A stretch of 24,703 nt of DNA from the IMG/VR virus record IMGVR_UViG_2778261164_000008; one strand, written 5' to 3'. Of the stretch, positions 1 to 21,062 are shown piece by piece. The notes under the pieces were generated by a model. The model saw nothing but the letters and a program-made list of their open reading frames with translations. It did not search any database and was not told where the DNA came from. Position 1 is the stretch's first letter. Each line of letters begins with the position of its first letter. The DNA is from a virus (taxonomy: Duplodnaviria; Heunggongvirae; Uroviricota; Caudoviricetes). A program made the position numbers and the translations under genes.

Positions 1-1053
1 TTACGGGGTAATGCCAACCGCTGCCGCCACTTTGTCGCCACTTGGCAGCGTTGCCAGAGGATTGAAACGGAGCGCCGTTTCTAGATGATCCGGTGCCAGA
101 TGTGCGTAACGCATAGTCATTTTTATATCGTGGTGTCCGAGAATTTTTTGTAAGGCCAGAATGTTTCCACCCGACATCATGAAGTGCGCCGCAAACGTAT
201 GGCGCAGAACGTGTGTGAGTTGACCGCGAGGGAGCACGATAGACGTTTTTTCCATCACGGATAAAAATTGAAAATAGCAGTCTGTGAAGAAATTGAACCC
301 ATCAAGCGCCATGATCTCTTCGTAAAGCTCTTTACTGATAGGGATGCTTCTGTTTTTCTTCCCCTTCGTTCTGACAAAGGTAATTCGGTATTTGGTCACC
401 TGTGAGCGGGTAAGATTTACGGCTTCACGCCAGCGTGCGCCTGTGCTTAAGCATATCTTAACTACCAGTGCCAGAATTGGGTCCTGACGTTTGCAATCAG
501 CCAGCAATTCAACAATCTGCTCATGGGTAAGCCATGCCATCTCTTTTTCTGCGATGGTGAATTTTCGCATGTTCTCCAGTGGGTTCGGATACGACCATTC
601 GCCCAGACGGGATAGTTCGCTAAAAACACTACTTAGATAGCTTTGCTCTAGGTTAATGGTGACCGGGCTTGCTCCTTTCTTCCATTTCTCGCTGAAGTAG
701 ATCTCGCCTGTCAGGCGTTTATCTCGATAGTGGGCAAACATTTTAGAGGTGAGATCGGTTGCAAGAGGATTGCCCAGAGCGTCAACCATCAACAGCAATT
801 TGTCATAGACATGCTGCCCAGCTGTCAGAGATTTACCATGTAGTTTGAACCATAGCTCAACCACGTCTTTCAGTGTTCGACGATCCACTGATTCACCCAG
901 CCAGGGCTTTGCTTCGGTTTCTTCCATCGTGTGGCGCTCAAAAGCCAGTGCTTCGCCTTTGGTAGCGAATTGTTTACGCACACGACGCCCACTTCGTCCG
1001 GCGGGGTAACATTCGCAAAGCCATTTCCCTGTGGTTAGTTTTCGTACTGCCAT
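1..1053 (-). CDS. int: Phage integrase, tyrosine recombinase (P2/186 Int family)
   Basis: 350-aa ORF with ATG at 1051-1053 and stop at 1-3. N-terminus MAVRKL...KQFATKGEALAFE and C-terminal LTHVLRHTFAAHFMMSGGNILALQKILGH...MTMRYAHLAP match the 186/P2 integrase pattern as I recall it (R..H..R..Y catalytic region). Confidence 0.9.
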   Translation of the reverse strand: MAVRKLTTGKWLCECYPAGRSGRRVRKQFATKGEALAFERHTMEETEAKPWLGESVDRRTLKDVVELWFKLHGKSLTAGQHVYDKLLLMVDALGNPLATDLTSKMFAHYRDKRLTGEIYFSEKWKKGASPVTINLEQSYLSSVFSELSRLGEWSYPNPLENMRKFTIAEKEMAWLTHEQIVELLADCKRQDPILALVVKICLSTGARWREAVNLTRSQVTKYRITFVRTKGKKNRSIPISKELYEEIMALDGFNFFTDCYFQFLSVMEKTSIVLPRGQLTHVLRHTFAAHFMMSGGNILALQKILGHHDIKMTMRYAHLAPDHLETALRFNPLATLPSGDKVAAAVGITP

Positions 1054-1135: not shown

Positions 1136-2812
1136 CTAAGCAACATGTAGTTCATCGTTGGCGGAAGTGGCTGCTTTGCGCTCCTGCTCAATAGCTAGAG
1201 ACTCTCTATATTCTTTCGCCTCTGCAAACATTGTCCAGTGGGCGTTGATGTTCATGTCTTCAATAACTGATTTGATTTCTTTTAAATTTACGTTAAAAAA
1301 CTCTTTTCGTGAGTTAATTTTATTGACCTGCTTTTCGTTGAAAACTTTATGCAGATGGTTTTCTAATGATGGTGCATCATCACTATAAATCATCGCATGA
1401 ACATCGAACGAAAAAGGAACACTAGCATCTCCGAGTTCACGAACACGATCAAGTGGTTCAAGGCGGCGTGTCATTCCAATTTTATATACATCTTCGCCAA
1501 ATGAACCAATATTACTAATGATATAGACGTGGCCTGATCTGGTTTGTTGAGCCATAGAAATAGCTCGTTGATTTTTAGCTTCAGCTTCTTCATATTTTAA
1601 CTGTAGTTCAGCTATTTTTTGCTCTAAAGCTAAGCGTTGTTCTTCATTTGCAAGCATAAGTTCTTTCGTTGCTTTATTTATAGCTTGCTGAATAGCTTTT
1701 TCTTCTTTTTCAGCTTCTTTTATCGCTTTTTCATATTCCCTACGAGCTCTTTCCTCTTCACGAAGCTGTTCTTTAATCCTTCTTTGCTCTTCTTTTTCTT
1801 CGAGCATAATTTCATTAACTGCTACACCCCATTTTAGCTCGTTGAGTCTTGCCTGAAGATAGATGTCACTTATTTTTGCGGATCTAAAGGCAGAGCCATT
1901 GTAATTTACTAGTTGAAATGCATCTTTTATTTCTTGGGAAAGTTTTCCAAAATTGTTGTGTTTGACTTTTGATAAAATACTGTCAACTCTTCCATTGAAG
2001 GCATCCAAAACAAAGTTTATGGCAGTATTACGCCTGTTTTGCTCAACATAATCACACGAAGCAGCTTTATTAGTTTTTATTAATGATTTGGTTAACTCTC
2101 TGGCTTTTTGTAATTCCTTGCCTGCATCTGTAAATTCATAATTTTCTGCCAGCTCATCAAGTACACTACGGTTAGGGATGATCCATTCATCACCATAACC
2201 TTCAATTTTATTTTTCATTGATTTTGCAACTGCTTCATATTTTTCTGCAAACTCTTTAGCTTCATATGCTGAACCAGCAATCTCCTTTGCTCTTTCTTCT
2301 GCATCAGAAATAATTTTTACTGCATTGTCATTAGCATTTGAGATTAGCTCATTTGCTTTATTATTAGCATTATCAAGACGTTCTTTGGCTTTCAGGCGTG
2401 CATCGCGAGCGTCTTTGGTGATTGCTATAGCTTCGCTATTAGCGTTGCTTATTGTCATCTGAGCTTGATAATTTGCTTCGTTTACTGTTTTAGCCGCCTT
2501 AATTTGGGCTTCATCTATTTTTTGCTTGGCTATTGAGTCCGCATTTTTTATCTTATTCTCTGCATCCATTACTGCGCTGTGCAATTCTTCGTATTGCCAC
2601 AATGGTGCTGCTCGCCCTTCAAGCTCTGATAATTCTCGTACGGTCTGTGCTAGTTTTTCTTGATTTTCAATCAGTTGGTTAGAAAGGGCTATGTTGTTAG
2701 CTGTCAGGTTATCTATAGCCGCTTTGTGTTTTTTACTTTGTTTAAATAATATTACAGCTAGAACAGGGGCGAGAAATGCTAATAAGAGTATAACGATGGC
2801 AAATGAATTCAT
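1136..2812 (-). CDS. Membrane-anchored coiled-coil protein with C-terminal T5orf172/GIY-YIG-like domain (DUF4041-like architecture); cargo gene
   Basis: 558-aa ORF, ATG at 2810-2812 with an AAGGA Shine-Dalgarno about 8 nt upstream on the minus strand. Hydrophobic N-terminus (MNSFAIVILLLAFLAPVLAVILF), long K/E/A-rich coiled-coil-like middle, C-terminal GHVYIISN...YKIGMTRRLEPLDRVRELG resembling the T5orf172/MUG113 GIY-YIG-like motif. Visibly AT-rich relative to flanking phage genes. Confidence 0.8.
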   Translation of the reverse strand: MNSFAIVILLLAFLAPVLAVILFKQSKKHKAAIDNLTANNIALSNQLIENQEKLAQTVRELSELEGRAAPLWQYEELHSAVMDAENKIKNADSIAKQKIDEAQIKAAKTVNEANYQAQMTISNANSEAIAITKDARDARLKAKERLDNANNKANELISNANDNAVKIISDAEERAKEIAGSAYEAKEFAEKYEAVAKSMKNKIEGYGDEWIIPNRSVLDELAENYEFTDAGKELQKARELTKSLIKTNKAASCDYVEQNRRNTAINFVLDAFNGRVDSILSKVKHNNFGKLSQEIKDAFQLVNYNGSAFRSAKISDIYLQARLNELKWGVAVNEIMLEEKEEQRRIKEQLREEERARREYEKAIKEAEKEEKAIQQAINKATKELMLANEEQRLALEQKIAELQLKYEEAEAKNQRAISMAQQTRSGHVYIISNIGSFGEDVYKIGMTRRLEPLDRVRELGDASVPFSFDVHAMIYSDDAPSLENHLHKVFNEKQVNKINSRKEFFNVNLKEIKSVIEDMNINAHWTMFAEAKEYRESLAIEQERKAATSANDELHVA

Positions 2813-2832: not shown

Positions 2833-3429
2833 TTAATTCGAGACTATTGTACTTCTTATACAAGCAACCACTTCAATATCAGAAAATGCACATTCAAAGC
2901 TATTCTCTGCTGTTGTAATTTTAATCATTCCTTTAGGAAGCCTTGTGATTTTTCGAATGGAATAGGTTCCGTCGATATTGATTAACCAGTTTCCATCAAG
3001 TACTTCAGAAAATTTTTGATCACAAATGTATGTGACGAGTCCATCCTGAACAACAATTGGTGATGAAAGGTTTGCAGGAAGAAATGATGAATCGAAGACA
3101 TATGAACCGTCTTCAATCATTTTGCCTGCGGCAAGGCGAAACTTAACAAGCTCTTCTGTAGCTGCTGTCAGCGAGCTTTGCTTAAGGCCTTGTCCGGTAG
3201 TTAACCATTTGAGGGAGGTTCCTGTTTCAAGAGCACATTGGATTATCCAGTCAGCAGGAAATGTATCCCGCAAATACCTGTTCGCTAGTGTGCTTTTTGA
3301 TACTTCCAAGTGATCAGCTAAAGCCTGTCGTGTCGTAAAGCCATAGGCTTCGACTAATCGCTCAATCGCAGCCTTACCACCTTTATTGGGATTTATTTTG
3401 ATCTCACTTGGGTACTTTGATGTTGACAT
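2833..3429 (-). CDS. cI: Phage immunity repressor CI (186-type)
   Basis: 198 aa, ATG at 3427-3429. N-terminal segment ...VEAYGFTTRQALADHLEVSKSTLANRYLRD...CALETGTSLKWLTTGQG resembles the 186 CI HTH region as I recall it; C-terminal FECAFSDI also similar. Divergent from apl/cII as in the 186 switch. Confidence 0.8.
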   Translation of the reverse strand: MSTSKYPSEIKINPNKGGKAAIERLVEAYGFTTRQALADHLEVSKSTLANRYLRDTFPADWIIQCALETGTSLKWLTTGQGLKQSSLTAATEELVKFRLAAGKMIEDGSYVFDSSFLPANLSSPIVVQDGLVTYICDQKFSEVLDGNWLINIDGTYSIRKITRLPKGMIKITTAENSFECAFSDIEVVACIRSTIVSN

Positions 3430-5579: not shown

Positions 5580-6433
5580 GCACCATCCTGAAATGGGCGG
5601 GAAATAAAACCGCCATTATGCCAGAACTGAAAAAATACCTTCCTGCTGGCCCGCGACTGGTTGAACCTTTCGCGGGTTCCTGTGCTGTGATGATGGAAAC
5701 GGATTATCCCAGCTATCTGGTTGCGGATATTAATCCTGATTTAATCAACCTCTATAAAAAGGTTGCCGCTGATTGTGAATCGTTTATATCTCGCGCCAGA
5801 GTTTTATTTGAGATCGCAAACAGGGAGGTGGCTTATTACAACATAAGGCAGGAGTTTAACTGCTCAACTGAAATTACTGATTTCATGAAAGCGGTATATT
5901 TCCTGTATCTCAATCGTCACGGTTACCGTGGTTTATGTCGCTATAACAAGAGCGGGCATTTCAACATTCCCTACGGTAATTATAAAAATCCGTATTTCCC
6001 TGAAAAAGAACTTCGCACATTTGCAGAAAAAGCCCAGCGAGCAACGTTTATCTGCGCCAGCTTTGATGAAACGCTGGCGATGTTGAAGGCGGGAGATGTG
6101 GTGTATTGCGATCCGCCATATGACGGTACGTTTTCCGGCTATCACACTGATGGTTTCACTGAAGATGACCAGTATCACCTGGCATCCGTTCTTGAACATC
6201 GGTCATCAGAAGGACATCCGGTCATTGTTTCTAACAGTGACACATCCCTGATCCGTTCGCTGTATCGCAATTTTACTCACCACTATATCAAGGTAAAACG
6301 CAGCATCGGTGTGGCAGCTGGCGAGGGTAAATCAGCAACAGAAATCATTGCTGTTTCCGGGCCGCGCTGCTGGATGGGATTTGATTATTCGCGTGGCGTG
6401 GATAGTTCTGCCGTGTACGGAGTACGTGCATGA
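5576..6433 (+). CDS. dam: DNA adenine methyltransferase (Dam-like, GATC-type N6-adenine MTase)
   Basis: ATG at 5576 with GGAGGT RBS at 5565-5570. N-terminal LKWAGNK...EPFAGS (AdoMet-binding motif) and catalytic DPPY at CDPPYDGTF. Stop overlaps the gene A start (ATGA). Confidence 0.9.
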
Positions 6434-8844
6434 GTCATGCCGATATGAACAACTGCTGCGGCTTTAACGAGGCTGCCGCAGCATTCTCATGGAACAGCCC
6501 GAAAAAGGCCATTAACCCTTATCTGGACCCGGCGGAAGTTGCGCCGGTTTCTACGCTTTCAAACCTGATCACTCTGTACGCTGCCGATAACGAGCAGGAA
6601 CAGTTGCGCCGCGAGGCACTGAGTGATCAGGTCTGGGAGCGTTATTTCTTTAATGAATCACGTGATCCTGTCCAGCGCGAAATGGAGCAGGATAAGCTCA
6701 TTAGCCGGGCAAAGCTGGCGCATGAGCAGCAGCGTTTTAATTCAGACATGGTCATTCTGGCGGACGTCAACGCCCAGCCTTCCCATATCAGCAAGCCGCT
6801 GATGCAACGTATTGAATACTTCAGCAGCCTGGGCAGGCCAAAGGCTTATTCCCGCTATTTACGTGAGACGATTAAGCCATGTCTGGAACGACTGGAGCAT
6901 GTACGCGACAGTCAGCTATCTGCATCTTTTCGCTTTATGGCAAGCCATGAAGGGCTGGACGGCCTGCTGATCCTGCCTGAAATGAGTCAGGATCAGGTGA
7001 AACGCCTGTCCACCCTGGTAGCTGCGCATATGAGTATGTGCCTTGATGCAGCTTGTGGTGATTTGTATGCCACCGATGACGTTAAGCCAGAAGAAATCCG
7101 CAAGACATGGGAAAAGGTGGCAGCGGAAACCCTGCGTCTGGATGTCATCCCACCTGCGTTTGAGCAACTCCGTCGGAAAAGAAACCGCCGTAAACCCGTG
7201 CCCTATGAACTCATTCCGGGTTCGCTGGCGCGTATGTTGTGCGCCGACTGGTGGTATCGGAAATTATGGAAGATGCGTTGCGAATGGCGGGAAGAGCAGT
7301 TGCGCGCTGTTTGCCTGGTCAGCAAAAAAGCATCTCCTTATGTCAGCTATGAAGCCGTGATGCATAAACGTGAGCAGCGCCGTAAGTCGCTGGAGTTTTT
7401 CCGTTCTCATGAACTGGTGAACGAAGACGGCGACACGCTGGACATGGAGGATGTGGTAAACGCCAGCAGCAGCAACCCTGCGCATCGCCGCAATGAGATG
7501 ATGGCCTGTGTTAAAGGTCTGGAGCTTATCGCGGAAATGCGCGGTGACTGCGCCGTTTTCTACACTATCACCTGTCCGTCGCGTTTCCATTCCACGCTAA
7601 ATAACGGCAGACCAAACCCGACCTGGACAAACGCGACGGTAAGACAAAGCAGCGATTATCTGGTCGGCATGTTTGCTGCATTTCGTAAGGCGATGCACAA
7701 AGCCGGGTTGCGCTGGTATGGCGTGCGGGTGGCTGAGCCGCATCATGATGGCACAGTTCACTGGCACCTGTTGTGTTTCATGCGCAAAAAAGACCGCCGT
7801 GCCATCACTGCATTACTGCGTAAGTTTGCCATCCGTGAAGACCGCGAGGAGCTGGGCAATAACACTGGGCCGCGCTTTAAGTCTGAGTTGATTAACCCGC
7901 GCAAAGGAACGCCGACAAGCTACATCGCGAAATATATCAGTAAGAACATTGACGGTCGTGGTCTGGCTGGCGAGATCAGCAAGGAAACGGGTAAATCTCT
8001 GCGTGATAACGCTGAATACGTGAATGCCTGGGCGTCTCTGCATCGTGTTCAGCAATTCCGCTTCTTTGGTATTCCGGGGCGTCAGGCTTACCGTGAACTT
8101 CGCTTGCTGGCTGGTCAGGCGGCAAGGCAACAGGGTGACAAAAAAGCAGGTGCGCCGGTACTGGATAACCCGCGTCTTGATGCCATTCTGGCTGCTGCTG
8201 ATGCTGGTTGTTTTGCCACCTACATCATGAAGCAGGGCGGCGTACTGGTTCCCCGTAAATATCACCTCATCAGAACCGCTTATGAAATCAACGAAGAGCC
8301 GACCGCCTATGGCGATCACGGCATTCGTATTTATGGCATCTGGTCACCCATTGCAGAGGGCAAGATCTGCACTCATGCAGTGAAGTGGAAAATGGTTCGT
8401 AAAGCCGTTGACGTTCAGGAGGCGGCAGCCGACCAGGGCGCTTGCGCCCCTTGGACTCGTGGCAATAACTGTCCCCTTGCTGAAAATTTGAACCAACAGG
8501 AGAAAGATAAATCAGCTGATGGGGACCCCAGAACGGACATTACCAGCATGGATGACAAGGAGTTGCACGATTACCTGCACAGTATGAACAAAAAAGAGCG
8601 CCGGGAACTGGCTGCAAGGTTACGCCTGGTGAAACCGAAACGGCGTAAAGACTACAAACAGCGAATTACAGACCATCAGCGACTGCAGCTCGTGTATGAG
8701 CTGAAGTCCAGAGGATTTGATGGCAGCGAGAAAGAGGTCGATTTACTCCTTCGCGGAGGCAGTATTCCGTCAGGAGCAGGCCTGCGTATCTTCTATCGGA
8801 ACCAGCGTTTGCAAGAAGATGATCAGTGGCGGAACCTGTATTAA
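6430..8844 (+). CDS. A: Replication initiation endonuclease gpA (rolling-circle, P2 A family)
   Basis: 804 aa; contains [10 protein letters not shown] (HxH metal-binding motif of the rolling-circle initiator) and a YIAKYISK tyrosine region; size and position match P2/186 gene A. Confidence 0.9.
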
Positions 8845-9430: not shown

Positions 9431-9565
9431 GAAACGTTGCTGGCGCCTGAACTTGCTTCTGGCGTCAGCAAGGTTGAACAACGAGCCCTTGCGAGGCGTT
9501 AGCTCTGTAGTGCATGTCTATGCCGCATGAGATCGCATGATCGTTTGAGGATCGTTTTTGCTAAG

Positions 9566-9590
9566 GCCCGCCAGAACTGGCGGGCTTTTG
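9566..9590 (+). terminator. Rho-independent terminator
   Basis: GCCCGCCAG-aa-CTGGCGGGC perfect 9-bp stem followed by TTTT, downstream of the DinI-like gene. Confidence 0.7.
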
Positions 9591-9634
9591 CGTAGATCAT
9601 GCAGGTGCATGAAAACCACTACATAAAGCGGGCA

Positions 9635-9653
9635 GGCGTGGCGGGGATACGAG
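9635..9653. other. Candidate cos (cohesive end) site of the P2/186 type
   Basis: GGCGTGGCGGGGATACGAG; the first 13 nt match the 186 cohesive end as I remember it (GGCGTGGCGGGGA...) and a GCGCGCT block follows, as in the P2 left end. Recalled, not searched. Confidence 0.4.
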
Positions 9654-9692
9654 CGCGCGCTACCGCTTTTAGGATTATGCTGTTCAAAAACA

Positions 9693-9721
9693 TTGACTGC
9701 TATGCTAATTTAAGATTAATC
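9693..9721 (+). promoter_or_regulatory. Weak candidate promoter for the two-gene cargo cassette
   Basis: TTGACT at 9693-9698 followed 16-17 bp later by ATTAAT/TTAATC, upstream of the 9758 start. Confidence 0.3.
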
Positions 9722-9757
9722 CCAAAATGGAAGCAATTATTTTCGTAAGGAAAGAAA

Positions 9758-10576
9758 ATGCGAGTTAATTACGATGTTATTATCAAAAGCGGCGATGATG
9801 AAGTAGATATGGAATACGGTCTCGACACGCTTGCAGGAACTGCAGAGGTTACTTGCTTGTTGGCGGAGGCTATACTTAGGAAAGTAATAATAAAGCGCCG
9901 CTCTCATGTAAATCCTGCAAGGGCTGTACTCAAGAGGAATTTCACCGGTTCTTATGGTCAAAATTTTGACTTGGTTATTAATGATGCTGAACTGGTATCA
10001 GAACTTCGCAAAATATCTAAACCAGTATTTAATGAAGTGATGAGTTTCTTTATTTCGCAATCATTATATTTAGAGAGTCGCGAACTTTCCAATGAAGCGG
10101 AAGAAGTAGTTAAAGGTTTATCGGATATTGAGGATGAGTTGATAGGTCGTATTCGAGCTCCTCTAAAAAGAATGCATGAAATTAATCTCAAAAAAAACTA
10201 TAATATCGAGTTAAACTTTAAACAGCGTGCCCATGATAAGAAAAAAGTAATTGAATTAGATACATCTACTGCAACAAATTTATTCACATCACGTGTTTTA
10301 AAAAAGACTGAAGTAATCAGGGCTTATATTACAAGATTTAATGCTCGCACTGGCAATGGTAGGCTTGTTCTTGAGGGCGAAAATGATACGGTGGCATTTG
10401 GGTTTTATAGCCCCTTACGTGTCATCATTCCAGCTCAAAAAAGAATGATTTCGGCTAACTTACATGTAAATAATCCGCCTTCCACTGCTGGCTATATTTA
10501 TCTTGAACTGACTGTAAGTCGGGTAATAATTAACAGTGGGGAAACTGTGAAATATTTAGTGCATACGGTGCAGTAA
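9758..10576 (+). CDS. Hypothetical soluble protein, gene 1 of AT-rich two-gene cargo cassette
   Basis: 272-aa ORF, ATG at 9758 with AAGGAAAG RBS; AT-rich; no family recognised by eye. Confidence 0.7.
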   Translation: MRVNYDVIIKSGDDEVDMEYGLDTLAGTAEVTCLLAEAILRKVIIKRRSHVNPARAVLKRNFTGSYGQNFDLVINDAELVSELRKISKPVFNEVMSFFISQSLYLESRELSNEAEEVVKGLSDIEDELIGRIRAPLKRMHEINLKKNYNIELNFKQRAHDKKKVIELDTSTATNLFTSRVLKKTEVIRAYITRFNARTGNGRLVLEGENDTVAFGFYSPLRVIIPAQKRMISANLHVNNPPSTAGYIYLELTVSRVIINSGETVKYLVHTVQ

Positions 10577-10577
10577 G

Positions 10578-11324
10578 ATGTTAAAAATAATTTGTTTAGC
10601 TCTCATAATAATAGTTTTGGGGGTTTATTGTATTAAGTTTGGCCCCTGGTACTTAAGTACTCAAGATGCTGATGTTTGGGGGCAATTTGGGGACTTCATG
10701 GGTGGGGTCCTGAATCCTATACTAAGTTTTATCTCGATTTGCCTGCTGATTCGCTCTGTAACTTTACAAGTGCAGTCTAACTCAACATTGAAACAAGAGA
10801 TAAAAAGACAAGAGTTACTTGAAGATTACAAAAAATTTGAAGTGAGGTTTTTCTGTCTAATTGAATCTCAAGATTCTAATTATAATAAATTGCGTATTGT
10901 AATCGGTAATGGAGCAGATAATGATGATGAAAGTAAAGGGGGGGGGACCAAAGAACCTACACTTATTGAGTATAGATCTAATAATGCTATAACTTTCATT
11001 GATGATAACTTGAGCATCTTGGTTAGAGCTGGAATAGAAAAGAAAAGAATCATTGCATGGTTGGAAAGTTTAGATGTTGATGATCATTTTTTCTCTTTGG
11101 TAAGAAGATTTTATCTTTTGGTGAAGTTGATAGATGATAAAGTTGAAAGTGAAAAAAAAGCTGAGCAATATGAGCTGTTAATAAATATGACTGATGAAAA
11201 GCTTTTGACTATGATTGTTATTCTTTGTGAGTATTTTGATTGGGCAAATGTTTTGTATATTAAAAATAGTGGAATCATAGAGCAGGCTAAAATGGATGAC
11301 TATATTTCTAATTATAGAAACTAA
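10578..11324 (+). CDS. Hypothetical membrane protein (2 predicted N-terminal TM helices), gene 2 of cargo cassette
   Basis: ATG at 10578, 1 nt after the upstream stop (translational coupling). N-terminal hydrophobic segments LKIICLALIIIVLGVYCIKF and GGVLNPILSFISICLLI; the rest is charged and soluble-looking. Confidence 0.7.
   Translation: MLKIICLALIIIVLGVYCIKFGPWYLSTQDADVWGQFGDFMGGVLNPILSFISICLLIRSVTLQVQSNSTLKQEIKRQELLEDYKKFEVRFFCLIESQDSNYNKLRIVIGNGADNDDESKGGGTKEPTLIEYRSNNAITFIDDNLSILVRAGIEKKRIIAWLESLDVDDHFFSLVRRFYLLVKLIDDKVESEKKAEQYELLINMTDEKLLTMIVILCEYFDWANVLYIKNSGIIEQAKMDDYISNYRN
10938..10946 (+). repeat. G9 homopolymer tract inside the membrane-protein gene
   Basis: ggggggggg at 10938-10946 (encodes KGGG) inside an otherwise AT-rich gene. 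Confidence 0.9.
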
Positions 11325-11375
11325 ATAACCTCAAACACTTTTTCAATGTTTAAGGTTTACCGGGTTTGTTGTTAT

Positions 11376-12407
11376 TTAATTATCTAAAGTGTATTGGGTG
11401 AATGAAATAATTTTTTCGCCCACCCAAGAATTAACTTCTTTTAATCGCCCTTGTAGATAAATTAATTCATTACGTACAAATACCAGACTGGCCTTCTCCA
11501 CATCTCCAAACCCACCTACATTGCTCGGCATAATCCCCATCATTTGCGGCGGCACACGGTGTGCAGCCATCATGTCGTCCCGGCTCACGTTCTTGATGTT
11601 CAGAAATTCATCCTTCGCTGCGACTTCTGACAGCGGGATGATCTGAAGCCCGTCCTTTTTGCCGTTAGGCGAGTACATAAACAGGTTGCGGAAGTTGCCT
11701 GGACCTTTGGCGCTTTTCATCGCGTTGCGGAGGTTGTTCACATCTTCCTGGTTCTGCGCGGCGTCGGTCATATACATGATGAAGCCAGCATGACTGCCGT
11801 TAATGTAATACTTTCGACGGAACAGCGTGGCGGACTCATTGAGCAGGGCGGACGGAATGGCAGAAAGATAGCCGGGCAAGCCGTAGATCTCCTGGTTAAT
11901 GTCCGGTTCCATCAGATGAAAAATGCTGCCTTTCGTGAACTGATATGGCTGGGTTGTCATACCGTATTGCACAAACCAGTAGGTATCCAGGTCTAACCCG
12001 CGTCGGGTGTATTTTGCCAGCGCAGGCTCAAGGGCGATAACTTCACCGAAGCGGTTCGTGCGTTTCTCCAGGTAGGCGTTACCAAAAACCAGATAGTCCT
12101 GCACAAAACGCGAAAAAGCCTGCTGGCTGAGCAGCGGGTGAGGGATGTAGGTGCTGGTCAAAATGTTGCATTTCACCGCAATCGGTGAGCTGTGATGCAC
12201 GGCGGCGCGGAAGGTTCGTGCCAGTCCGTCAAAGCTGACGGGCGGCTCATACCAGCGATCCATCTGTACGCATTCCACATAGTCCAGCAGTTCGCGGCGG
12301 TCCAGAACAGGAACGGGATCACCGAAGCTGAATGCTTCGGCTGAAGTCTGGCTTTTATGCTGGTTCTGGTTCGTCGACGCAGCGCGGTTCTTCTTACTCT
12401 TTCCCAT
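11376..12407 (-). CDS. Q: Portal protein gpQ
   Basis: 343 aa from ATG at 12405-12407, which overlaps the P stop (TGATG); the track ORF starts one codon earlier at a TTG. Size matches P2 Q (~344 aa); position downstream of terminase P on the leftward strand. Confidence 0.9.
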   Translation of the reverse strand: MGKSKKNRAASTNQNQHKSQTSAEAFSFGDPVPVLDRRELLDYVECVQMDRWYEPPVSFDGLARTFRAAVHHSSPIAVKCNILTSTYIPHPLLSQQAFSRFVQDYLVFGNAYLEKRTNRFGEVIALEPALAKYTRRGLDLDTYWFVQYGMTTQPYQFTKGSIFHLMEPDINQEIYGLPGYLSAIPSALLNESATLFRRKYYINGSHAGFIMYMTDAAQNQEDVNNLRNAMKSAKGPGNFRNLFMYSPNGKKDGLQIIPLSEVAAKDEFLNIKNVSRDDMMAAHRVPPQMMGIMPSNVGGFGDVEKASLVFVRNELIYLQGRLKEVNSWVGEKIISFTQYTLDN

Positions 12408-14173
12408 CAAAAAATCTCCACAATATTGCTGGCATTGGCGGACTCGCCCTGCAGCGGTTCGTTAAACAGTGCGTGCATTGTTGCCCAGGCCAGATCGGCA
12501 TGGCTGGCTTCTTCGCTGCGGCTGGCTTCATAGGTCGGGCGGTTGCCGCTGGCGGTGGTGGCGCGACGGATTGCCATGAATGACTGCGCAATGTCGGTGT
12601 GTCCGGCGTCAAATTCCAGGCGGCGGTGACTGATAATGTCGTAGGCCTTGAGTACCAGGGCGTTTTTAACGTTGGGGTTGTAGACAAACTCCCGGACGGC
12701 AGGAAAAAACGCTTTCACGTTCTCGTAAACCCCGTGACCGACGCCGGTCGAGTCGATGCCGATATAGGTCACGTTATACTGTTCGGTCAGTTTTTTGATG
12801 GCGTCAGCCTGGGCGCGGAAGTCCATTCCGCGCCACTGGTGACGCTCAAGAATGCGGAACTTACCGCCCGGCACGACTGGCGGTGCCACCACCACGCATC
12901 CGGCGCTGTCGCCGTTCTGCGTACCTTTTGCCGGGTCATAACCGATCCACACTTCGCGCCAGCCAAACGGGCGCAGGGCCAGTGCATGAAAGTCGGTCCA
13001 GACTTCCCAACTGTCCACCATGCACGCCTGCAGCTCGCTGAGCGGGAACACGGACGCGAGATCGTCCACGAACTCACACATCAGCAGGTTCTGGTATTCG
13101 TCCGGGCTGTATTCCATGCGCAACTGGTCAAGGTCGAACAGGTTACAGCCGCCGCGCACCGCATCTTCTACGGTGACTATCTGGCGGTATTGCCCGTCTG
13201 CGCACAGCAGGCCGGGGGCCAGATTGCTGTGGGACAGGTCGATGTCCACCTTGTCGGCTTTGTTGCGTCCACGGTTGAACAGCGCACCGGACCAGAACGG
13301 ATAAGCACTGTGGGTCAGGCTGGATGGCGTGGAAAAATAGGTTTGTCGCCATTTTTTGTGAATAGCCATACCGGAAGCCACTTTGCGCAGCTCCTGGAAT
13401 TTCGGTATCCAGAAATATTCATCCAGATACAGGTTGCCGTGGTAACTCTGGGCAGTGCGAGCATTGGTGCCGAGGAAATACAGTGTGGCCCCGTTGGGAA
13501 GCACCATCGGATCGCCTTTCAGCTCCACTTCCACTTCTTTGGCGAAGTCGATGATGTACTGCTTAAAGACGTGCGCCTGTGCCTTACTGGCAGAAAGGAA
13601 AATCTGGTTACGTCCGGTTAGCAGGGCGTCAATCAGGGCTTCACGGGCAAAATAGAAGGTCGCGCCGATCTGGCGTGACTTCAGCAGGTTGCGGATGCGG
13701 TTGGTTTTTCCGGCTTCCCACCAGTGACGCTGGTAGTTGAACATGGAGGAATGGAAGATTTCTTCCAGCTTCTCAATCTGTTCATCGGTGAAAACATTCT
13801 TTTCAGGCTGACGGCGCGGGCCTTTGTTGCGGTTGGCGACGTTAGGGTTTAAATCGGCTTCGTTGCCGCCATTGTTAAACTTGCCGATCCGCGCGTGGCG
13901 CTCCGACTGGCGCGCCAGCAGATCAATTTCTTTGAAATCTTTCCCTTCTTTGTGCTCCTTCATAATGAGCTGGCAGTAACGTGCGGCGGTGGTGAGCTGC
14001 ATCTGATCCAGCGGCCCATAGTCACCCCACTTGTCGCGTTTTTTCCAGCTGTGAACGGTTGCAACTTTCTCGCCCAGCATTTCAGCAATGCGGGCGACGC
14101 GGTATCCCTGAAAGTACAGCAGCATGGCCTGCCGACGGGGATCGAGATCTGCGGGTGTCAGTGTGGTGTTCAT
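12407..14173 (-). CDS. P: Terminase large (ATPase) subunit gpP
   Basis: 588 aa, ATG at 14171-14173; size and synteny with Q, O, N, M match P2 gpP (~590 aa). Confidence 0.9.
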   Translation of the reverse strand: MNTTLTPADLDPRRQAMLLYFQGYRVARIAEMLGEKVATVHSWKKRDKWGDYGPLDQMQLTTAARYCQLIMKEHKEGKDFKEIDLLARQSERHARIGKFNNGGNEADLNPNVANRNKGPRRQPEKNVFTDEQIEKLEEIFHSSMFNYQRHWWEAGKTNRIRNLLKSRQIGATFYFAREALIDALLTGRNQIFLSASKAQAHVFKQYIIDFAKEVEVELKGDPMVLPNGATLYFLGTNARTAQSYHGNLYLDEYFWIPKFQELRKVASGMAIHKKWRQTYFSTPSSLTHSAYPFWSGALFNRGRNKADKVDIDLSHSNLAPGLLCADGQYRQIVTVEDAVRGGCNLFDLDQLRMEYSPDEYQNLLMCEFVDDLASVFPLSELQACMVDSWEVWTDFHALALRPFGWREVWIGYDPAKGTQNGDSAGCVVVAPPVVPGGKFRILERHQWRGMDFRAQADAIKKLTEQYNVTYIGIDSTGVGHGVYENVKAFFPAVREFVYNPNVKNALVLKAYDIISHRRLEFDAGHTDIAQSFMAIRRATTASGNRPTYEASRSEEASHADLAWATMHALFNEPLQGESANASNIVEIF

Positions 14174-19746: not shown

Positions 19747-19838
19747 AGATTCACGCTTTTGCTAGCTTCTACAAGGTTTTATGCTTCTAAACACTGTATG
19801 TTTAATTTGACATATAACTATTTGTACAAGCGGTGAGT

Positions 19839-21062
19839 ATGAAAAAGCAAGATGAGTCCCCCAAAGCTGATAAATCAAATTTAGATAAAAGTGAGTCTGA
19901 ACCACCAAAAGCGAACTCTATGGCAGATGCCATGGCCATAGCGGCAGAGGTTGCTACGACAGCAACGTCAGTTCAAACATCAACCTTTGCAATTATCGCG
20001 GATTTTCTACGTTCAGGTGGTATAGAAAAACTAACTTCAAATGCTATCAAAAATTTAGAAATAAAAGTAAAGGGCCATTCTCAAGCGACAAGAACTACGG
20101 TATTGAGGAACCTGAAGACCTCTTTCAAAGAGGAGAATTTAGTTCTTGTTTTAGGTGCTGGCATTTCTTTAGATTACAGCATACCAACATGGAGTGAATT
20201 ATTAAAGCGGCTATTGGCAAGAGCTTTGGATGATAAAAATGAAAATCAGAAAATGGTATCGGTTTTGTTTAATGAGGTTTTCGGTCCGAACGCACTCATA
20301 GCAGCCAGATATCTAAAACTACACTTTGATGGTATTAATACTCCCTTGGAAAAAGAAATTCAGCATGTTTTGTATGAATATTATCAGGAGGAAGAAAGCA
20401 GTACATTGAAAGCAATCAAGAAATTGTGCATATCGGCAGGCAAGTCACCAGGTCTAGATTCCGTTATTACATATAACTATGATGATATTTTGGAACAGAC
20501 ATTAACTAGAGCTGATGTTGGTATAAAGTATAAGGTGATTTCAAAGACGGGGCAGCATGCAAAAAATGATGAACTGCCGATCTACCATGTGCATGGCTAT
20601 CTCCCATTGCAGGGGAAAGTTGAACTCGATGACACGCTAGTCCTTTCTGATGAAAGCTATCATAGGCAATACATGGATTTATACCATTGGAGCAATATGG
20701 TTCAGTTGAATAAATTCAAAGATGGAAATTGCCTGTTTGTTGGTCATTCCTTTACAGATCCAAACCTCAGAAGGTTGATGGATACAGCCAAAAAACTTAG
20801 AGGGAATGATTCTAAACCTCATTATTTAATTAAGTGTAGACATTCGAAAGAAGATGTGATTGCTAATATTCAAAGAATTGTTAGTGACTCAAGAAATGGA
20901 TTTGATAATAAACTGAATATTAATGAGGATGCAATCGCGACCTCTCTTTTACAGACAGTGCATACTTTTGAAGAAATCGATGCTAATTCATTTGGCGTGA
21001 ATGTTATTTGGATCGACTCTTACGATGAGATTGCACCAATACTTAATGATCTAACACAATAA
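19839..21062 (+). CDS. SIR2-like (SIR2_2 family) protein, candidate NAD+-consuming defence effector; cargo gene
   Basis: ATG at 19839 (the track ORF begins two codons earlier at a GTG). After a ~100-aa Lys/Ser/Ala-rich N-terminus: LVLVLGAGISLDYSIPTWSELL (Rossmann GAG), LPIYHVHGY (candidate catalytic His) and CLFVGHSFTDPNLRRLM, all characteristic of prokaryotic SIR2-like domains. AT-rich; inserted between S and the V late promoter. Confidence 0.8.
   Translation: MKKQDESPKADKSNLDKSESEPPKANSMADAMAIAAEVATTATSVQTSTFAIIADFLRSGGIEKLTSNAIKNLEIKVKGHSQATRTTVLRNLKTSFKEENLVLVLGAGISLDYSIPTWSELLKRLLARALDDKNENQKMVSVLFNEVFGPNALIAARYLKLHFDGINTPLEKEIQHVLYEYYQEEESSTLKAIKKLCISAGKSPGLDSVITYNYDDILEQTLTRADVGIKYKVISKTGQHAKNDELPIYHVHGYLPLQGKVELDDTLVLSDESYHRQYMDLYHWSNMVQLNKFKDGNCLFVGHSFTDPNLRRLMDTAKKLRGNDSKPHYLIKCRHSKEDVIANIQRIVSDSRNGFDNKLNINEDAIATSLLQTVHTFEEIDANSFGVNVIWIDSYDEIAPILNDLTQ

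What the first reader, a model, noticed from the sequence alone, without database searches (positions are those of the whole stretch)
9690..11340. Unclassified AT-rich two-gene cassette (soluble 272 aa plus 2-TM 248 aa) between the cos-like site and the portal gene
In P2 the portal gene Q lies next to cos. Here a 1.6-kb AT-rich operon sits between them, with its own candidate promoter and the two genes separated by a single nucleotide (translational coupling). Gene 2 encodes a protein with two N-terminal transmembrane helices followed by a soluble domain, the kind of architecture used by membrane-disrupting abortive-infection effectors; gene 1 could be the sensor or regulator. I cannot assign either protein to a known family by eye, so this is the strongest candidate in the window for an undescribed accessory or defence system.
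Basis: partly seen in the sequence, partly recalled or inferred. Interest (0 to 1): 0.8.

Follow-up and report, generated by a model that had tools for sequence, protein, structure and literature searches.

The report
AbiC/AbiP-like two-gene prophage defence candidate
The two AT-rich genes beside the packaging site of this P2/186-like prophage are swappable cargo in a known anti-phage hotspot: an untested pair of a distant relative of the lactococcal AbiC/AbiP membrane abortive-infection proteins and a soluble partner with a nucleic-acid-binding-type barrel.

Summary
There are two coupled ORFs (9758..10576, 272 aa; 10578..11324, 248 aa; 1-nt spacer) at GC 0.30-0.35, against 0.52-0.60 in the flanks. 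They lie between a 186-type cos core (9635-9653) and the portal gene.

The claim that neither protein fits a known family is only half right.
- **Gene 2** is a divergent, full-length member of the AbiC/AbiP (Pfam putAbiC) superfamily. There is no direct HMM hit. However, its family profile retrieves proteins that are themselves putAbiC/AbiP/AbiC-positive, and hhalign gives 99.96 % probability (E 6e-39) over 228 columns.
- **Gene 1** is a remote DUF7946/DUF7947 protein. It is basic and ends in an OB/cold-shock-like barrel.

The pair is strictly conserved. Gene 2 follows gene 1 wherever the sequence continues: in 21 distinct loci and 21 of 23 IMG/VR contigs, with the stop-start distance measured at -23..+2 nt in 10 of them. 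Settings include P2-like prophages and non-phage islands.

The slot is the published gpA-gpQ defence hotspot. Near-identical backbones carry TIR, RelA/SpoT or Hypoth_Ymh cargo there instead. Rousset et al. 2022 already list the pair, unannotated and untested, as P2 system #77 and P4 system #31.

Most likely it is an abortive-infection-type system, with gene 1 as cytoplasmic sensor or regulator and gene 2 as membrane effector. I rate it a new two-gene variant of a known kind, of moderate interest.

The parts
9560..9591 (+). GC-rich hairpin followed by a T run (GCTAAGGCCCGCCAG..CTGGCGGGCTTTTGC). It is the likely terminator of the upstream DinI-like operon, so the cassette is probably not read through from gpA.
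   Evidence: Inverted repeat I2; sequence read.
9635..9653 (.). cos-like core GGCGTGGCGGGGATACGAG (186/P4 type). It marks the left edge of the variable slot; conservation with other prophages ends about 10-25 nt further on (about 9664-9677).
   Evidence: Invariant block GGGCAGGCGTGGCGGGGA..GCGCGC in five P2-like loci. The same core appears in the P4 cos sequences printed in Rousset Table S2A. Flank matches in 1277 E. coli genomes end at query position 165-178.
9693..9720 (+). Weak candidate promoter: TTGACT, 16 nt, ATTAAT.
   Evidence: Read by eye. It did not pass the consensus scan, and the -35 is not conserved in L002.
9758..10576 (+). Gene 1: a 272-aa soluble, basic (pI 9.0) protein. It is a remote DUF7946 + DUF7947 member, with an N-terminal alpha/beta domain (about 1-178) of unassigned fold and a C-terminal OB/cold-shock-like barrel (about 179-272). 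It is the proposed sensor or regulator.
10578..11324 (+). Gene 2: a 248-aa membrane protein with TM1 at about 2-21, a short acidic loop, and TM2 at about 40-58 carrying the invariant motif W34-GQFG-D39-xx-GG-x-L-N46-P47. A long helix and an acidic all-helical cytoplasmic domain follow. It is a divergent AbiC/AbiP (putAbiC) superfamily member and the proposed effector.
11327..11357 (.). 13-pair hairpin between the convergent stop codons of gene 2 and portal gene Q. It is a likely bidirectional terminator and marks the right edge of the slot.
   Evidence: sequence.

Best explanation
The cassette is a self-contained, horizontally mobile two-gene anti-phage module in the cos-proximal (gpA-gpQ) defence hotspot of a 186/P2-like prophage.

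Gene 2 is a membrane-anchored AbiC/AbiP-type abortive-infection protein. Predicted topology is N-in, two TM helices, and an acidic helical domain in the cytoplasm.

Gene 1 is a basic cytoplasmic partner whose C-terminal OB/cold-shock-like barrel probably binds a phage-derived ligand, most plausibly single-stranded nucleic acid or a nucleoprotein.

Proposed mechanism:
1. The two proteins are made in fixed ratio by translational coupling.
2. In the uninfected lysogen, gene 1 holds gene 2 inactive or is simply idle.
3. On superinfection, gene 1 engages its ligand and switches on gene 2.
4. Gene 2 acts at the inner membrane through its invariant intramembrane motif (WGQFGD..GG.LNP) and aborts the infection.

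Shown: the location, mobility and pairing of the genes, the homology of gene 2 to AbiC/AbiP, and the fold class of gene 1's C-terminal domain.

Inferred: anti-phage activity, which gene senses and which kills, the ligand, and the membrane action.
For: (1) Slot.
- The cassette lies between gpA and portal Q, directly after cos, which is the published P2 hotspot.
- It is in 5 of 5426 complete E. coli genomes, against 1277 genomes with the flank.
- Near-identical backbones carry Hypoth_Ymh, hypothetical+TIR, or ParA+RelA/SpoT in the same slot.
- Backbones with 95-99 % identical gpA/terminase carry alleles of this same system that are only 41-48 % identical.

(2) Gene 2 homology.
- The family profile finds 7373 cluster representatives at E<=1e-3.
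- Of 30 proteins scanned (gene 2 itself plus 29 distant hits at E 1e-22 to 1e-36), 16 match Pfam putAbiC (best 4e-27), 12 match PADLOC AbiP (1e-20) and 7 match PADLOC AbiC (1e-11).
- hhalign of the two groups gives 99.96 % probability, E 6.4e-39, over 228 columns that include both TM helices and the putAbiC region.
- AbiC and AbiP are experimentally shown abortive-infection proteins, AbiC with two TM helices (PMC13064643).

(3) Pairing.
- Gene 2 follows gene 1 in all 21 loci L001-L017 and L027-L030 and in 21 of 23 IMG/VR contigs; in the other two the contig ends.
- The stop-start distance is -23..+2 nt in 10 distinct loci, and pairwise identities correlate at r = 0.88.
- Non-phage contexts include a Pseudomonas island with integrase and resolvase, Chromobacterium, Thiothrix and Denitrovibrio.
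- The same family sits in P4-satellite hotspots (49 occurrences) and P2 hotspots (50 occurrences).

(4) Gene 1.
- The AF2 model is confident (pLDDT 90.4).
- The C-terminal barrel matches OB folds, SSBs, aaRS anticodon domains and cold-shock domains.
- Family median pI is 9.0. The paired gene 2 cytoplasmic domain has pI 4.8 and net charge -10, against -3 in stand-alone putAbiC.

(5) Natural knock-outs fall mostly in gene 2 with gene 1 intact: IS1, two frameshifts, and IS insertions in Denitrovibrio. This fits gene 2 being the costly or toxic component.
Against: - There is no experimental phenotype for this pair. I found it in no tested list: Rousset Tables S2A/B, Moura de Sousa 2026, or the DefensePredictor 2026 supplements.
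- Gene 2 itself gets no direct hit from Pfam putAbiC or from the PADLOC AbiC/AbiP models. The link is transitive.
- The mechanism of AbiC/AbiP is itself unknown, so the homology gives a phenotype class and not a mechanism.
- The N-terminal domain of gene 1 has no assignable fold.
- The sensor and effector roles could be reversed, or the pair could be toxin-antitoxin-like.
- The 4:1 bias in knock-outs is not statistically significant.
Confidence: 0.6

Rival explanations
1. Toxin-antitoxin or addiction module. Gene 2 is a membrane toxin and gene 1 its protein antitoxin. The pair mainly stabilises the prophage or mobile element, and any phage defence is secondary.
For: - The upstream-neutraliser, downstream-toxin order and the tight coupling are typical of type II TA operons.
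- Gene 2 is the gene repeatedly inactivated while gene 1 stays intact.
- The opposite charges of the two proteins suggest a complex.
- P2 hotspots also carry maintenance functions such as StbA/partition systems.
Against: - Gene 1 is large (272 aa, two domains) and has no HTH/RHH or other antitoxin-type DNA-binding domain hit.
- One complete genome has gene 1 truncated at its 5' end with gene 2 intact, which a strictly required antitoxin would not tolerate. This is a single case and could be an assembly error.
- Stand-alone putAbiC relatives exist without any partner, so the fold is not inherently lethal.
- The high allele turnover in one slot is more typical of defence than of addiction.
Confidence: 0.15
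2. Superinfection exclusion at the envelope. The membrane protein blocks DNA entry or receptor function of incoming phages without killing the cell, and gene 1 is a chaperone or regulator.
For: - Gene 2 is a prophage-encoded inner-membrane protein with a short periplasmic loop and a highly conserved motif at the periplasmic end of TM2.
- Many prophage Sie proteins are small membrane proteins (general knowledge).
Against: - Sie proteins are normally single small genes, whereas here a 272-aa cytoplasmic OB-fold partner is strictly conserved.
- Most of gene 2 (about 190 aa) is predicted to be cytoplasmic.
- Its characterised relatives AbiC and AbiP act after DNA entry, on capsid protein production, replication and the transcription switch.
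- The module also occurs outside prophages.
Confidence: 0.1
3. Non-defence accessory cargo, for example a membrane stress, transport or virulence-related function, or a modulator of the prophage's own lysis or induction.
For: - Not all hotspot cargo is defensive. Rousset et al. list partition systems and a cytolethal distending toxin.
- Both proteins are annotated only as 'hypothetical'.
Against: - Gene 2 is homologous to a validated Abi superfamily.
- The module occurs in both P2 and P4 hotspots.
- About three quarters of unknown hotspot loci tested in P4 proved defensive: 6 of 8.
- The prophage has its own complete late/lysis block elsewhere in the window.
Confidence: 0.08
4. A Zorya-like or MotB-like proton-driven stator element. 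Gene 2's TM helix with its invariant Asp would be a ZorB/MotB homologue.
For: - There are weak PADLOC ZorB3 hits to residues 28-80: E 3e-4 for gene 2, and 15 of 33 homologues with best E 3e-5.
- D39 is invariant within a W..F.DFM-like context.
Against: - There is no MotA/ZorA-like partner; gene 1 has no TM segment.
- There is no OmpA/peptidoglycan-binding domain.
- The family profile finds no MotB, ZorB, ExbD or TolR among PDB sequences even at E<=10.
- The predicted topology puts TM2 running out-to-in with Asp at the periplasmic end, opposite to MotB (inference).
- The same region aligns far better with putAbiC proteins.
Confidence: 0.02

Closest known systems
Lactococcal AbiC / AbiP ('AbiC/P group'; Pfam putAbiC PF16872; PADLOC AbiC, AbiP)
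   Same: Gene 2 shares full-length profile homology with proteins that match these models: hhalign 99.96 %, 228 columns. The shared architecture is N-terminal TM helices (two, as in AbiC), the invariant WGQFGD..GG.LNP motif, and an all-helical cytoplasmic domain that contains the putAbiC region. The family is carried on mobile elements.
   Different: AbiC and AbiP work as single genes, and the stand-alone putAbiC loci examined lack any gene 1 homologue. Here a 272-aa partner is strictly conserved and translationally coupled. Gene 2 is shorter (about 245 against about 285-305 aa), more acidic in its cytoplasmic part, and too divergent for a direct hit from any of the family HMMs. Nucleic-acid binding, a property of AbiP itself, may here belong to the OB-fold partner; that is an inference.
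Rousset et al. 2022 hotspot catalogue: P2 system #77 and P4 system #31 (unannotated two-gene systems)
   Same: This is the same two-protein family. Representative sequences carry WGQFGDY.GGV.NPIL and TRFN..TGNGRL / SYGQNF, and the comment '2 TM in protein 1'. It occupies the same cos-proximal hotspots. The window's own proteins, WP_040075599 and WP_040075596, are listed in Table S5A.
   Different: The catalogue gives no Pfam, no name and no test. The window carries a different allele from the catalogue representatives.
Lambda RexAB, and mycobacteriophage soluble-sensor plus membrane-protein prophage systems
   Same: These work alike on paper: a prophage-encoded pair of one soluble protein of about 270-280 aa and one membrane protein, expressed in the lysogen, and thought to abort superinfection at the membrane (general knowledge; RexAB-type paper listed).
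Pfam DUF7946 / DUF7947
   Same: Nine of 38 gene 1 homologues match each model (best E 4e-6 and 6e-5). Gene 1 itself matches DUF7947 at residues 184-214 with E 0.012. DUF7947 corresponds to the OB-like barrel.
   Different: The matches fall below Pfam's gathering score (16.1 against 27 bits). The families have no known function, and I found no paper that mentions them.

Membership tests
AbiC/AbiP superfamily (Pfam putAbiC PF16872) | Direct match of the protein to the Pfam putAbiC HMM at or above the gathering score | tested here: not met
   No putAbiC hit for gene 2 or for 9 close or intermediate homologues, even at E<=10.
AbiC/AbiP superfamily (Pfam putAbiC PF16872) | Direct match to the PADLOC AbiC or AbiP models | tested here: not met
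   None for gene 2. One of 33 homologues hits AbiP at E 0.0017.
AbiC/AbiP superfamily (Pfam putAbiC PF16872) | Profile-level, full-length homology to proteins that do match putAbiC/AbiC/AbiP | tested here: met
   A profile search retrieves such proteins at E 1e-22 to 1e-36. Of 30 scanned (gene 2 plus 29 distant hits), 16 are putAbiC, 12 AbiP and 7 AbiC. hhalign gives 99.96 %, E 6.4e-39, over 228 columns spanning the TM region and the putAbiC region.
AbiC/AbiP superfamily (Pfam putAbiC PF16872) | N-terminal transmembrane anchor (two helices in AbiC, one in AbiP) with a cytoplasmic helical domain | tested here: met
   Two hydrophobic segments at about 2-21 and 40-58. The positive-inside rule places the C-terminal domain in the cytoplasm. 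AF2 gives helices 2-25 and 31-103 followed by a helical domain. The same pattern holds in the homologues and in putAbiC-positive proteins.
AbiC/AbiP superfamily (Pfam putAbiC PF16872) | Functions as a single-gene system | tested here: not met
   Gene 1 always precedes gene 2 in this clade. Stand-alone putAbiC loci lack gene 1.
AbiC/AbiP superfamily (Pfam putAbiC PF16872) | Abortive-infection or anti-phage phenotype | not testable with these tools
   This requires cloning and phage challenge. No published test was found.
P2-like cos-proximal defence hotspot cargo (Rousset et al. 2022) | Located between replication gene gpA and portal gene gpQ, adjacent to cos | tested here: met
   gpA is 6430..8844, cos is at 9635-9653, the cassette is 9758-11324, and the portal gene is 11376..12410.
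P2-like cos-proximal defence hotspot cargo (Rousset et al. 2022) | Variable gene content in otherwise conserved backbones | tested here: met
   5 genomes carry the cassette against 1277 with the flank. Alternative cargo sits in the same slot. Divergent alleles occur in 95-99 % identical backbones.
Pfam DUF7946 + DUF7947 (gene 1) | Match to both HMMs at or above the gathering score | tested here: not met
   Gene 1 matches DUF7947 at E 0.012, 16.1 bits against a 27-bit cut-off, and has no DUF7946 hit. Nine of 38 homologues hit each at E<=0.01. It is a remote relative and not a certified member.
OB fold / cold-shock domain (gene 1 C-terminus) | Five-stranded closed beta-barrel that superposes on OB/CSD structures | tested here: inconclusive
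Zorya ZorB / MotB stator | MotA/ZorA-type multi-TM partner and a C-terminal OmpA-like peptidoglycan-binding domain | tested here: not met
   The partner has no TM segment. There is no OmpA-family hit. No MotB or ZorB appears in the PDB profile search at E<=10. Only a weak TM-region hit exists.
Type II toxin-antitoxin | The upstream gene is required to neutralise the downstream toxin | tested here: inconclusive
   Natural variants show gene 2 broken with gene 1 intact four times, and gene 1 truncated at its 5' end with gene 2 intact once. The numbers are too small, and genetics are needed.

The most novel reading that the evidence does not exclude
The DUF7946/DUF7947 partner is a dedicated nucleic-acid (or nucleoprotein) sensor. 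It gates an AbiC/P-type membrane protein through that protein's invariant intramembrane WGQFGD..GG.LNP motif. In this two-gene clade, sensing and killing would sit in separate polypeptides. That would give the first tractable, E. coli-based handle on how the very large AbiC/AbiP superfamily works. The superfamily has more than 7000 clusters at 50 % identity, and its mechanism has been unknown since the early 1990s.
Probability: 0.25. Interest if true: 0.7.

Novelty: new variant of a known kind. Interest (0 to 1): 0.5.

Why it matters
AbiC and AbiP were among the first abortive-infection genes described, yet their mechanism is still unknown (2026 review). The putAbiC superfamily is very large, with 7373 cluster representatives at E<=1e-3.

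This cassette shows that a sub-clade of the superfamily has acquired an obligatory OB-fold partner. The clade circulates in the P2 and P4 hotspots of Enterobacteriaceae and in other mobile islands of Proteobacteria.

Current detection models miss it. PADLOC v2 and Pfam give no hit for either protein, so such loci are counted as 'no known defence'.

If it is active, it adds a named two-gene system to the E. coli defence repertoire. It would also provide a genetically convenient model in which the presumed sensor and effector are separate proteins.

If it is inactive, it is one more unannotated hotspot cargo.

Tried and rejected
- **Direct family scans.** Both proteins were scanned against PADLOC, Pfam, NCBIfam and PHROGs. 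Only PHROGs families of unknown function matched (phrog_13337, phrog_8999), plus sub-threshold noise such as RamB, arginyl-tRNA synthetase, IL10 and TatC.
- **ZorB3/MotB lead.** I followed the TM-region hit and rejected it: no MotA partner, no OmpA domain, opposite predicted topology, and no MotB in the PDB profile search.
- **PDB sequence searches** with both family profiles gave nothing meaningful.
- **Foldseek against PDB for gene 1** gave no hit at E<=0.001. The N-domain resemblance to M16 peptidase/IDE had probability <= 0.33 and was rejected.
- **afdb50 fold library** was not available.
- **The search for related loci with the 38-sequence alignment** failed for lack of a conserved stretch. 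I repeated it with a 15-sequence alignment.
- **The UniRef name 'Phage abortive infection protein'** could not be reproduced by a direct Pfam scan. It is explained only by the transitive profile link.
- **The exact P2 cos 19-mer** is not present. The 186/P4-type core was found instead.
- **Literature searches** for DUF7946/DUF7947, putAbiC and the WP accessions found no papers.
- **Rfam and repeat scans** of the locus found nothing.
- **A core structural or replication role** is rejected, given the rarity and replaceability of the cassette.
Full report
**1. Observation**

The window holds two same-strand ORFs at the stated place. ORF1 is 9758..10576 (272 aa) and ORF2 is 10578..11324 (248 aa). 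The junction reads TAA-g-ATG.

GC falls to 0.35, 0.35 and 0.30 in the three 500-nt bins from 10001 to 11500. The neighbouring portal/terminase block is at 0.52-0.60 and gpA at about 0.53.

Upstream lie the gpA replication endonuclease (6430..8844), small ORFs that include a DinI-like gene, and a GC-rich hairpin at 9560-9591. Downstream lie the portal gene (11376..12410, -) and the terminase gene (12407..14173, -).

The exact P2 cos 19-mer is absent. The 186/P4-type core GGCGTGGCGGGGATACGAG sits at 9635-9653. The block GGGCAGGCGTGGCGGGGA..GCGCGC is invariant about 100-115 nt upstream of gene 1 in five P2-like loci that carry different alleles. The cassette therefore does lie between cos and Q.

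Gene 2 has two hydrophobic segments, at 2-21 and 40-58. The loop between them is acidic and the stretch after TM2 is positively charged. Gene 1 has no hydrophobic segment.

The 'own promoter' is the weak point. The consensus scan finds nothing upstream of gene 1. The TTGACT-16 nt-ATTAAT match I see by eye has a poor -10 and is not conserved. A 13-pair hairpin at 11327-11357 separates the convergent gene 2 and Q.

**2. The cassette is swappable cargo in a known hotspot**

Megablast of 9500-11400 against 5426 complete E. coli genomes finds the cos flank in 1277 genomes. The cassette itself is in only 5.

In backbones with the same gpA-hyp-DinI-cos...Q order, the identical slot holds other cargo:
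- a Hypoth_Ymh-domain protein in phage vB_EcoM-813R9;
- a hypothetical protein plus a TIR protein in strain SC516;
- ParA plus a RelA/SpoT-domain protein in strain J31.

This is the cos-proximal gpA-gpQ hotspot described by Rousset et al. 2022 (PMC9122126). A 2026 preprint on 1511 P2 elements confirmed it.

**3. The two genes are a conserved unit**

Homologues of each protein are numerous.

Pairing:
- In the 21 fetched loci L001-L017 and L027-L030, gene 1 is immediately followed by a gene 2 homologue.
- The same holds in 21 of 23 IMG/VR contigs. In the other two the contig ends.
- In 10 distinct loci the stop-to-start distance is -23 to +2 nt.
- The pairwise identities of the two proteins correlate at r = 0.88 across those loci, which are not independent points.

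Contexts beyond P2-like phages:
- a Pseudomonas island with integrase and resolvase;
- a Chromobacterium chromosomal site next to valS;
- Thiothrix;
- Aeromonas;
- Denitrovibrio, where IS elements split gene 2.

Within enterobacterial P2/186-like prophages, at least three further alleles occupy the same slot, with gene 1 at 64 %, 54 % and 41-48 % identity. Two viral contigs have gpA 95-96 % and terminase 99 % identical to the window, yet gene 1 is only 48 % and 41 % identical. That is allele replacement within a fixed backbone.

The window's exact proteins occur on 451 and 329 contigs in several enterobacterial genera.

**4. Gene 2 is a remote AbiC/AbiP relative**

Direct scans are negative for Pfam putAbiC and for PADLOC AbiC/AbiP.

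An exhaustive profile search with the family alignment finds 7373 cluster representatives at E<=1e-3 and 100 at E<=1e-30. I scanned 30 proteins: gene 2 itself plus 29 of the more distant hits (E 1e-22 to 1e-36, 19-30 % identity). The results were:
- 16 match Pfam putAbiC, best 4e-27;
- 12 match PADLOC AbiP, best 1e-20;
- 7 match PADLOC AbiC, best 1e-11.

The Pfam domain (80 positions) lies at about 180-265 of these proteins of about 290 aa.

hhalign of the gene 2 family against the putAbiC-positive set gives 99.96 % probability and E 6.4e-39 over 228 columns. The alignment runs from TM1 through the putAbiC region. That set was selected by the gene 2 profile, so the independent evidence is its separate matches to the curated models.

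The motif W-GQFG-D-xx-GG-x-L-N-P-x-L-S-F at the start of TM2 is invariant or nearly so in both groups.

According to a 2026 review (PMC13064643):
- AbiC has two TM helices and AbiP has one.
- The two proteins superpose and are grouped as 'AbiC/P'.
- No mechanism is known for either.

This homology explains why UniRef and one submitter call gene 2 a 'Phage abortive infection protein'.

The weak ZorB3/MotB hit to the TM region is rejected as a membership claim, for four reasons:
- there is no MotA-like partner;
- there is no OmpA domain;
- the predicted topology is opposite to MotB's;
- no MotB-family protein appears in the PDB profile search.

**5. Gene 1**

Nine of 38 homologues match Pfam DUF7946 and nine match DUF7947. 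Gene 1 itself reaches only E 0.012 on DUF7947. No paper mentions these DUFs.

The AF2 model is confident, with pLDDT 90.4.

For the C-terminal 90-100 residues:
- Foldseek's only plausible hits are cold-shock domains, at probability 0.9-0.98 but E 0.03-0.1.
- A profile-to-CspA alignment puts ITRFNARTGNGRL on VKWFNADKGFGFI and TVAFGF on DVFVHF. This places the family's invariant residues (R193, N195, T198, G201, R202, F214, F216) on the strands that bind nucleic acid in cold-shock domains. The score is weak (P = 0.037), so I treat it as a lead only.

The N-terminal domain (about 1-178) has no assignable fold. Its invariant or near-invariant D17, S65-Y-G-Q and H140 are unexplained.

Charge properties:
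- The gene 1 family is basic, with median pI 9.0 overall and 9.15 for the barrel.
- The cytoplasmic part of paired gene 2 proteins is acidic, with median pI 4.8 and net charge -10.
- Stand-alone putAbiC proteins have a net charge of about -3.

**6. Stand-alone versus paired**

The putAbiC-positive proteins I could place on contigs have no gene 1 homologue nearby, in line with AbiC and AbiP being single-gene systems. The gene 1-associated proteins are shorter (about 235-255 aa) and make up the top roughly 100 representatives. The cassette is therefore a two-gene variant of the AbiC/P kind.

**7. Prior knowledge of this pair**

The window's proteins, WP_040075599 and WP_040075596, appear in Rousset's Table S5A as 'hypothetical + hypothetical'.

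The family is listed as P2 system #77 (50 occurrences, '2 TM in protein 1') and as P4 system #31 (49 occurrences). Neither entry has a Pfam annotation.

The family's diagnostic motifs do not occur in:
- the tables of tested systems, S2A/S2B, which print protein sequences;
- the supplements of the 2026 P2/P4 preprint;
- the supplements of the DefensePredictor paper.

In that 2026 preprint, 6 of 8 randomly chosen unknown P4 hotspot loci were protective. That sets a high prior for hotspot cargo.

**8. Natural knock-outs**

Gene 2 is disrupted while gene 1 stays intact in four cases:
- NZ_OW968288, by IS1;
- NZ_CP016182, split into 137 + 104 aa;
- NZ_CP058574, a frameshift in allele 3;
- Denitrovibrio, by IS elements.

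One genome, NZ_CP122880, has gene 1 shortened at its 5' end with gene 2 intact.

The 4:1 bias fits gene 2 being the costly component. The single reverse case argues weakly against gene 1 being an indispensable antitoxin. The numbers are too small to decide either way.

**9. Interpretation**

The most likely reading (confidence about 0.6) is a prophage-borne anti-phage system of the abortive-infection type. A basic OB-fold protein senses an infection cue or regulates its partner. An AbiC/P-type inner-membrane protein executes.

Shown:
- the location of the cassette;
- its replaceability;
- the pairing of the two genes;
- the homology of gene 2;
- the fold class of gene 1's barrel.

Inferred: the phenotype, the division of labour, the ligand, and the action at the membrane.

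Rivals:
- a TA/addiction module, 0.15;
- envelope-level superinfection exclusion, 0.10;
- non-defence cargo, 0.08;
- a MotB-like stator, 0.02.

A core phage role is excluded.

**10. Verdict**

The slot is a textbook hotspot, the pair is already catalogued (though untested), and gene 2 belongs to a known Abi superfamily.

What is new here is threefold: the AbiC/P assignment, the recognition of an obligatory DUF7946/7947 OB-fold partner, and the breadth of the paired clade.

Novelty: new variant of a known kind. Interest: 0.5.

Noticed in passing
window 19833..21062 (+): A second AT-rich cargo gene (GC about 0.36) lies inside the late/tail gene block. Its 409-aa product has a SIR2 domain, with phmmer hits to ThsA (6lhx, 5e-8) and the KomC SIR2 NADase (8zsf, 8.5e-7). 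It is probably a second defence gene, in the P2 late-gene hotspot.
   Followed up: partly
window 1136..2812 (-): A third AT-rich cargo gene (558 aa, GC about 0.35-0.39) lies between the integrase (1..1053, -) and a 186-type CI repressor (2833..3429, -; 2fjr at 7e-27). It has no PDB sequence relative. Related phages annotate it as 'chromosome segregation ATPase' (vB_EcoM-813R9 99.8 %, Klebsiella phage KP12 97.8 %), and there are about 53 % identical homologues in Synechococcus and Marinitoga viruses. The location matches the minor int-proximal hotspot.
   Followed up: partly
L025 (NZ_OW968288), L026 (NZ_CP016182), L031 (NZ_CP058574), L010 (Denitrovibrio CP001968), L032 (NZ_CP122880): These are natural knock-outs of the cassette. 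Gene 2 is interrupted by IS1, split into 137 + 104 aa, frameshifted, or split by two IS elements, each time with gene 1 intact. One genome has gene 1 shortened at its 5' end with gene 2 intact.
   Followed up: partly
L052 and L055 (IMG/VR contigs): These viral contigs have gpA 95-96 % and terminase 99 % identical to the window. In the same slot they carry alleles of the same two-gene system whose gene 1 is only 48 % and 41 % identical. That is allele replacement within a fixed backbone.
   Followed up: partly
L001 4951..6008 (E. coli 22F46), corresponding to an insertion just upstream of window about 9510: In the strain with the closest copy of the cassette, two extra hypothetical genes (216 and 843 bp) sit between DinI and cos. 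Cargo can therefore sit on both sides of cos in one prophage.
   Followed up: no
Rousset et al. 2022 Table S5B, system #86 (42 occurrences): [quoted passage not shown] Its putAbiC protein carries the same WGQFGDYIGGVLNP motif. AbiC/P-type membrane proteins therefore recur as modules of several multi-gene hotspot systems.
   Followed up: no
gene 2 residues 34-51 (window about 10677-10730) and the whole putAbiC superfamily: The motif W-GQFG-D-xx-GG-x-L-N-P-x-L-S-F at the periplasmic end of TM2 is invariant or nearly so, both in the paired clade and in stand-alone putAbiC proteins. That is far more conserved than a passive membrane anchor would need. Its function is unexplained.
   Followed up: partly
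gene 1 residues 17, 65-68, 140 (window about 9806, 9950-9961, 10175): The N-terminal domain has no recognisable fold but keeps D17 (>=90 %), S65 with Y-G-Q, and H140 across 38 homologues. This could be a ligand-binding or catalytic site.
   Followed up: no
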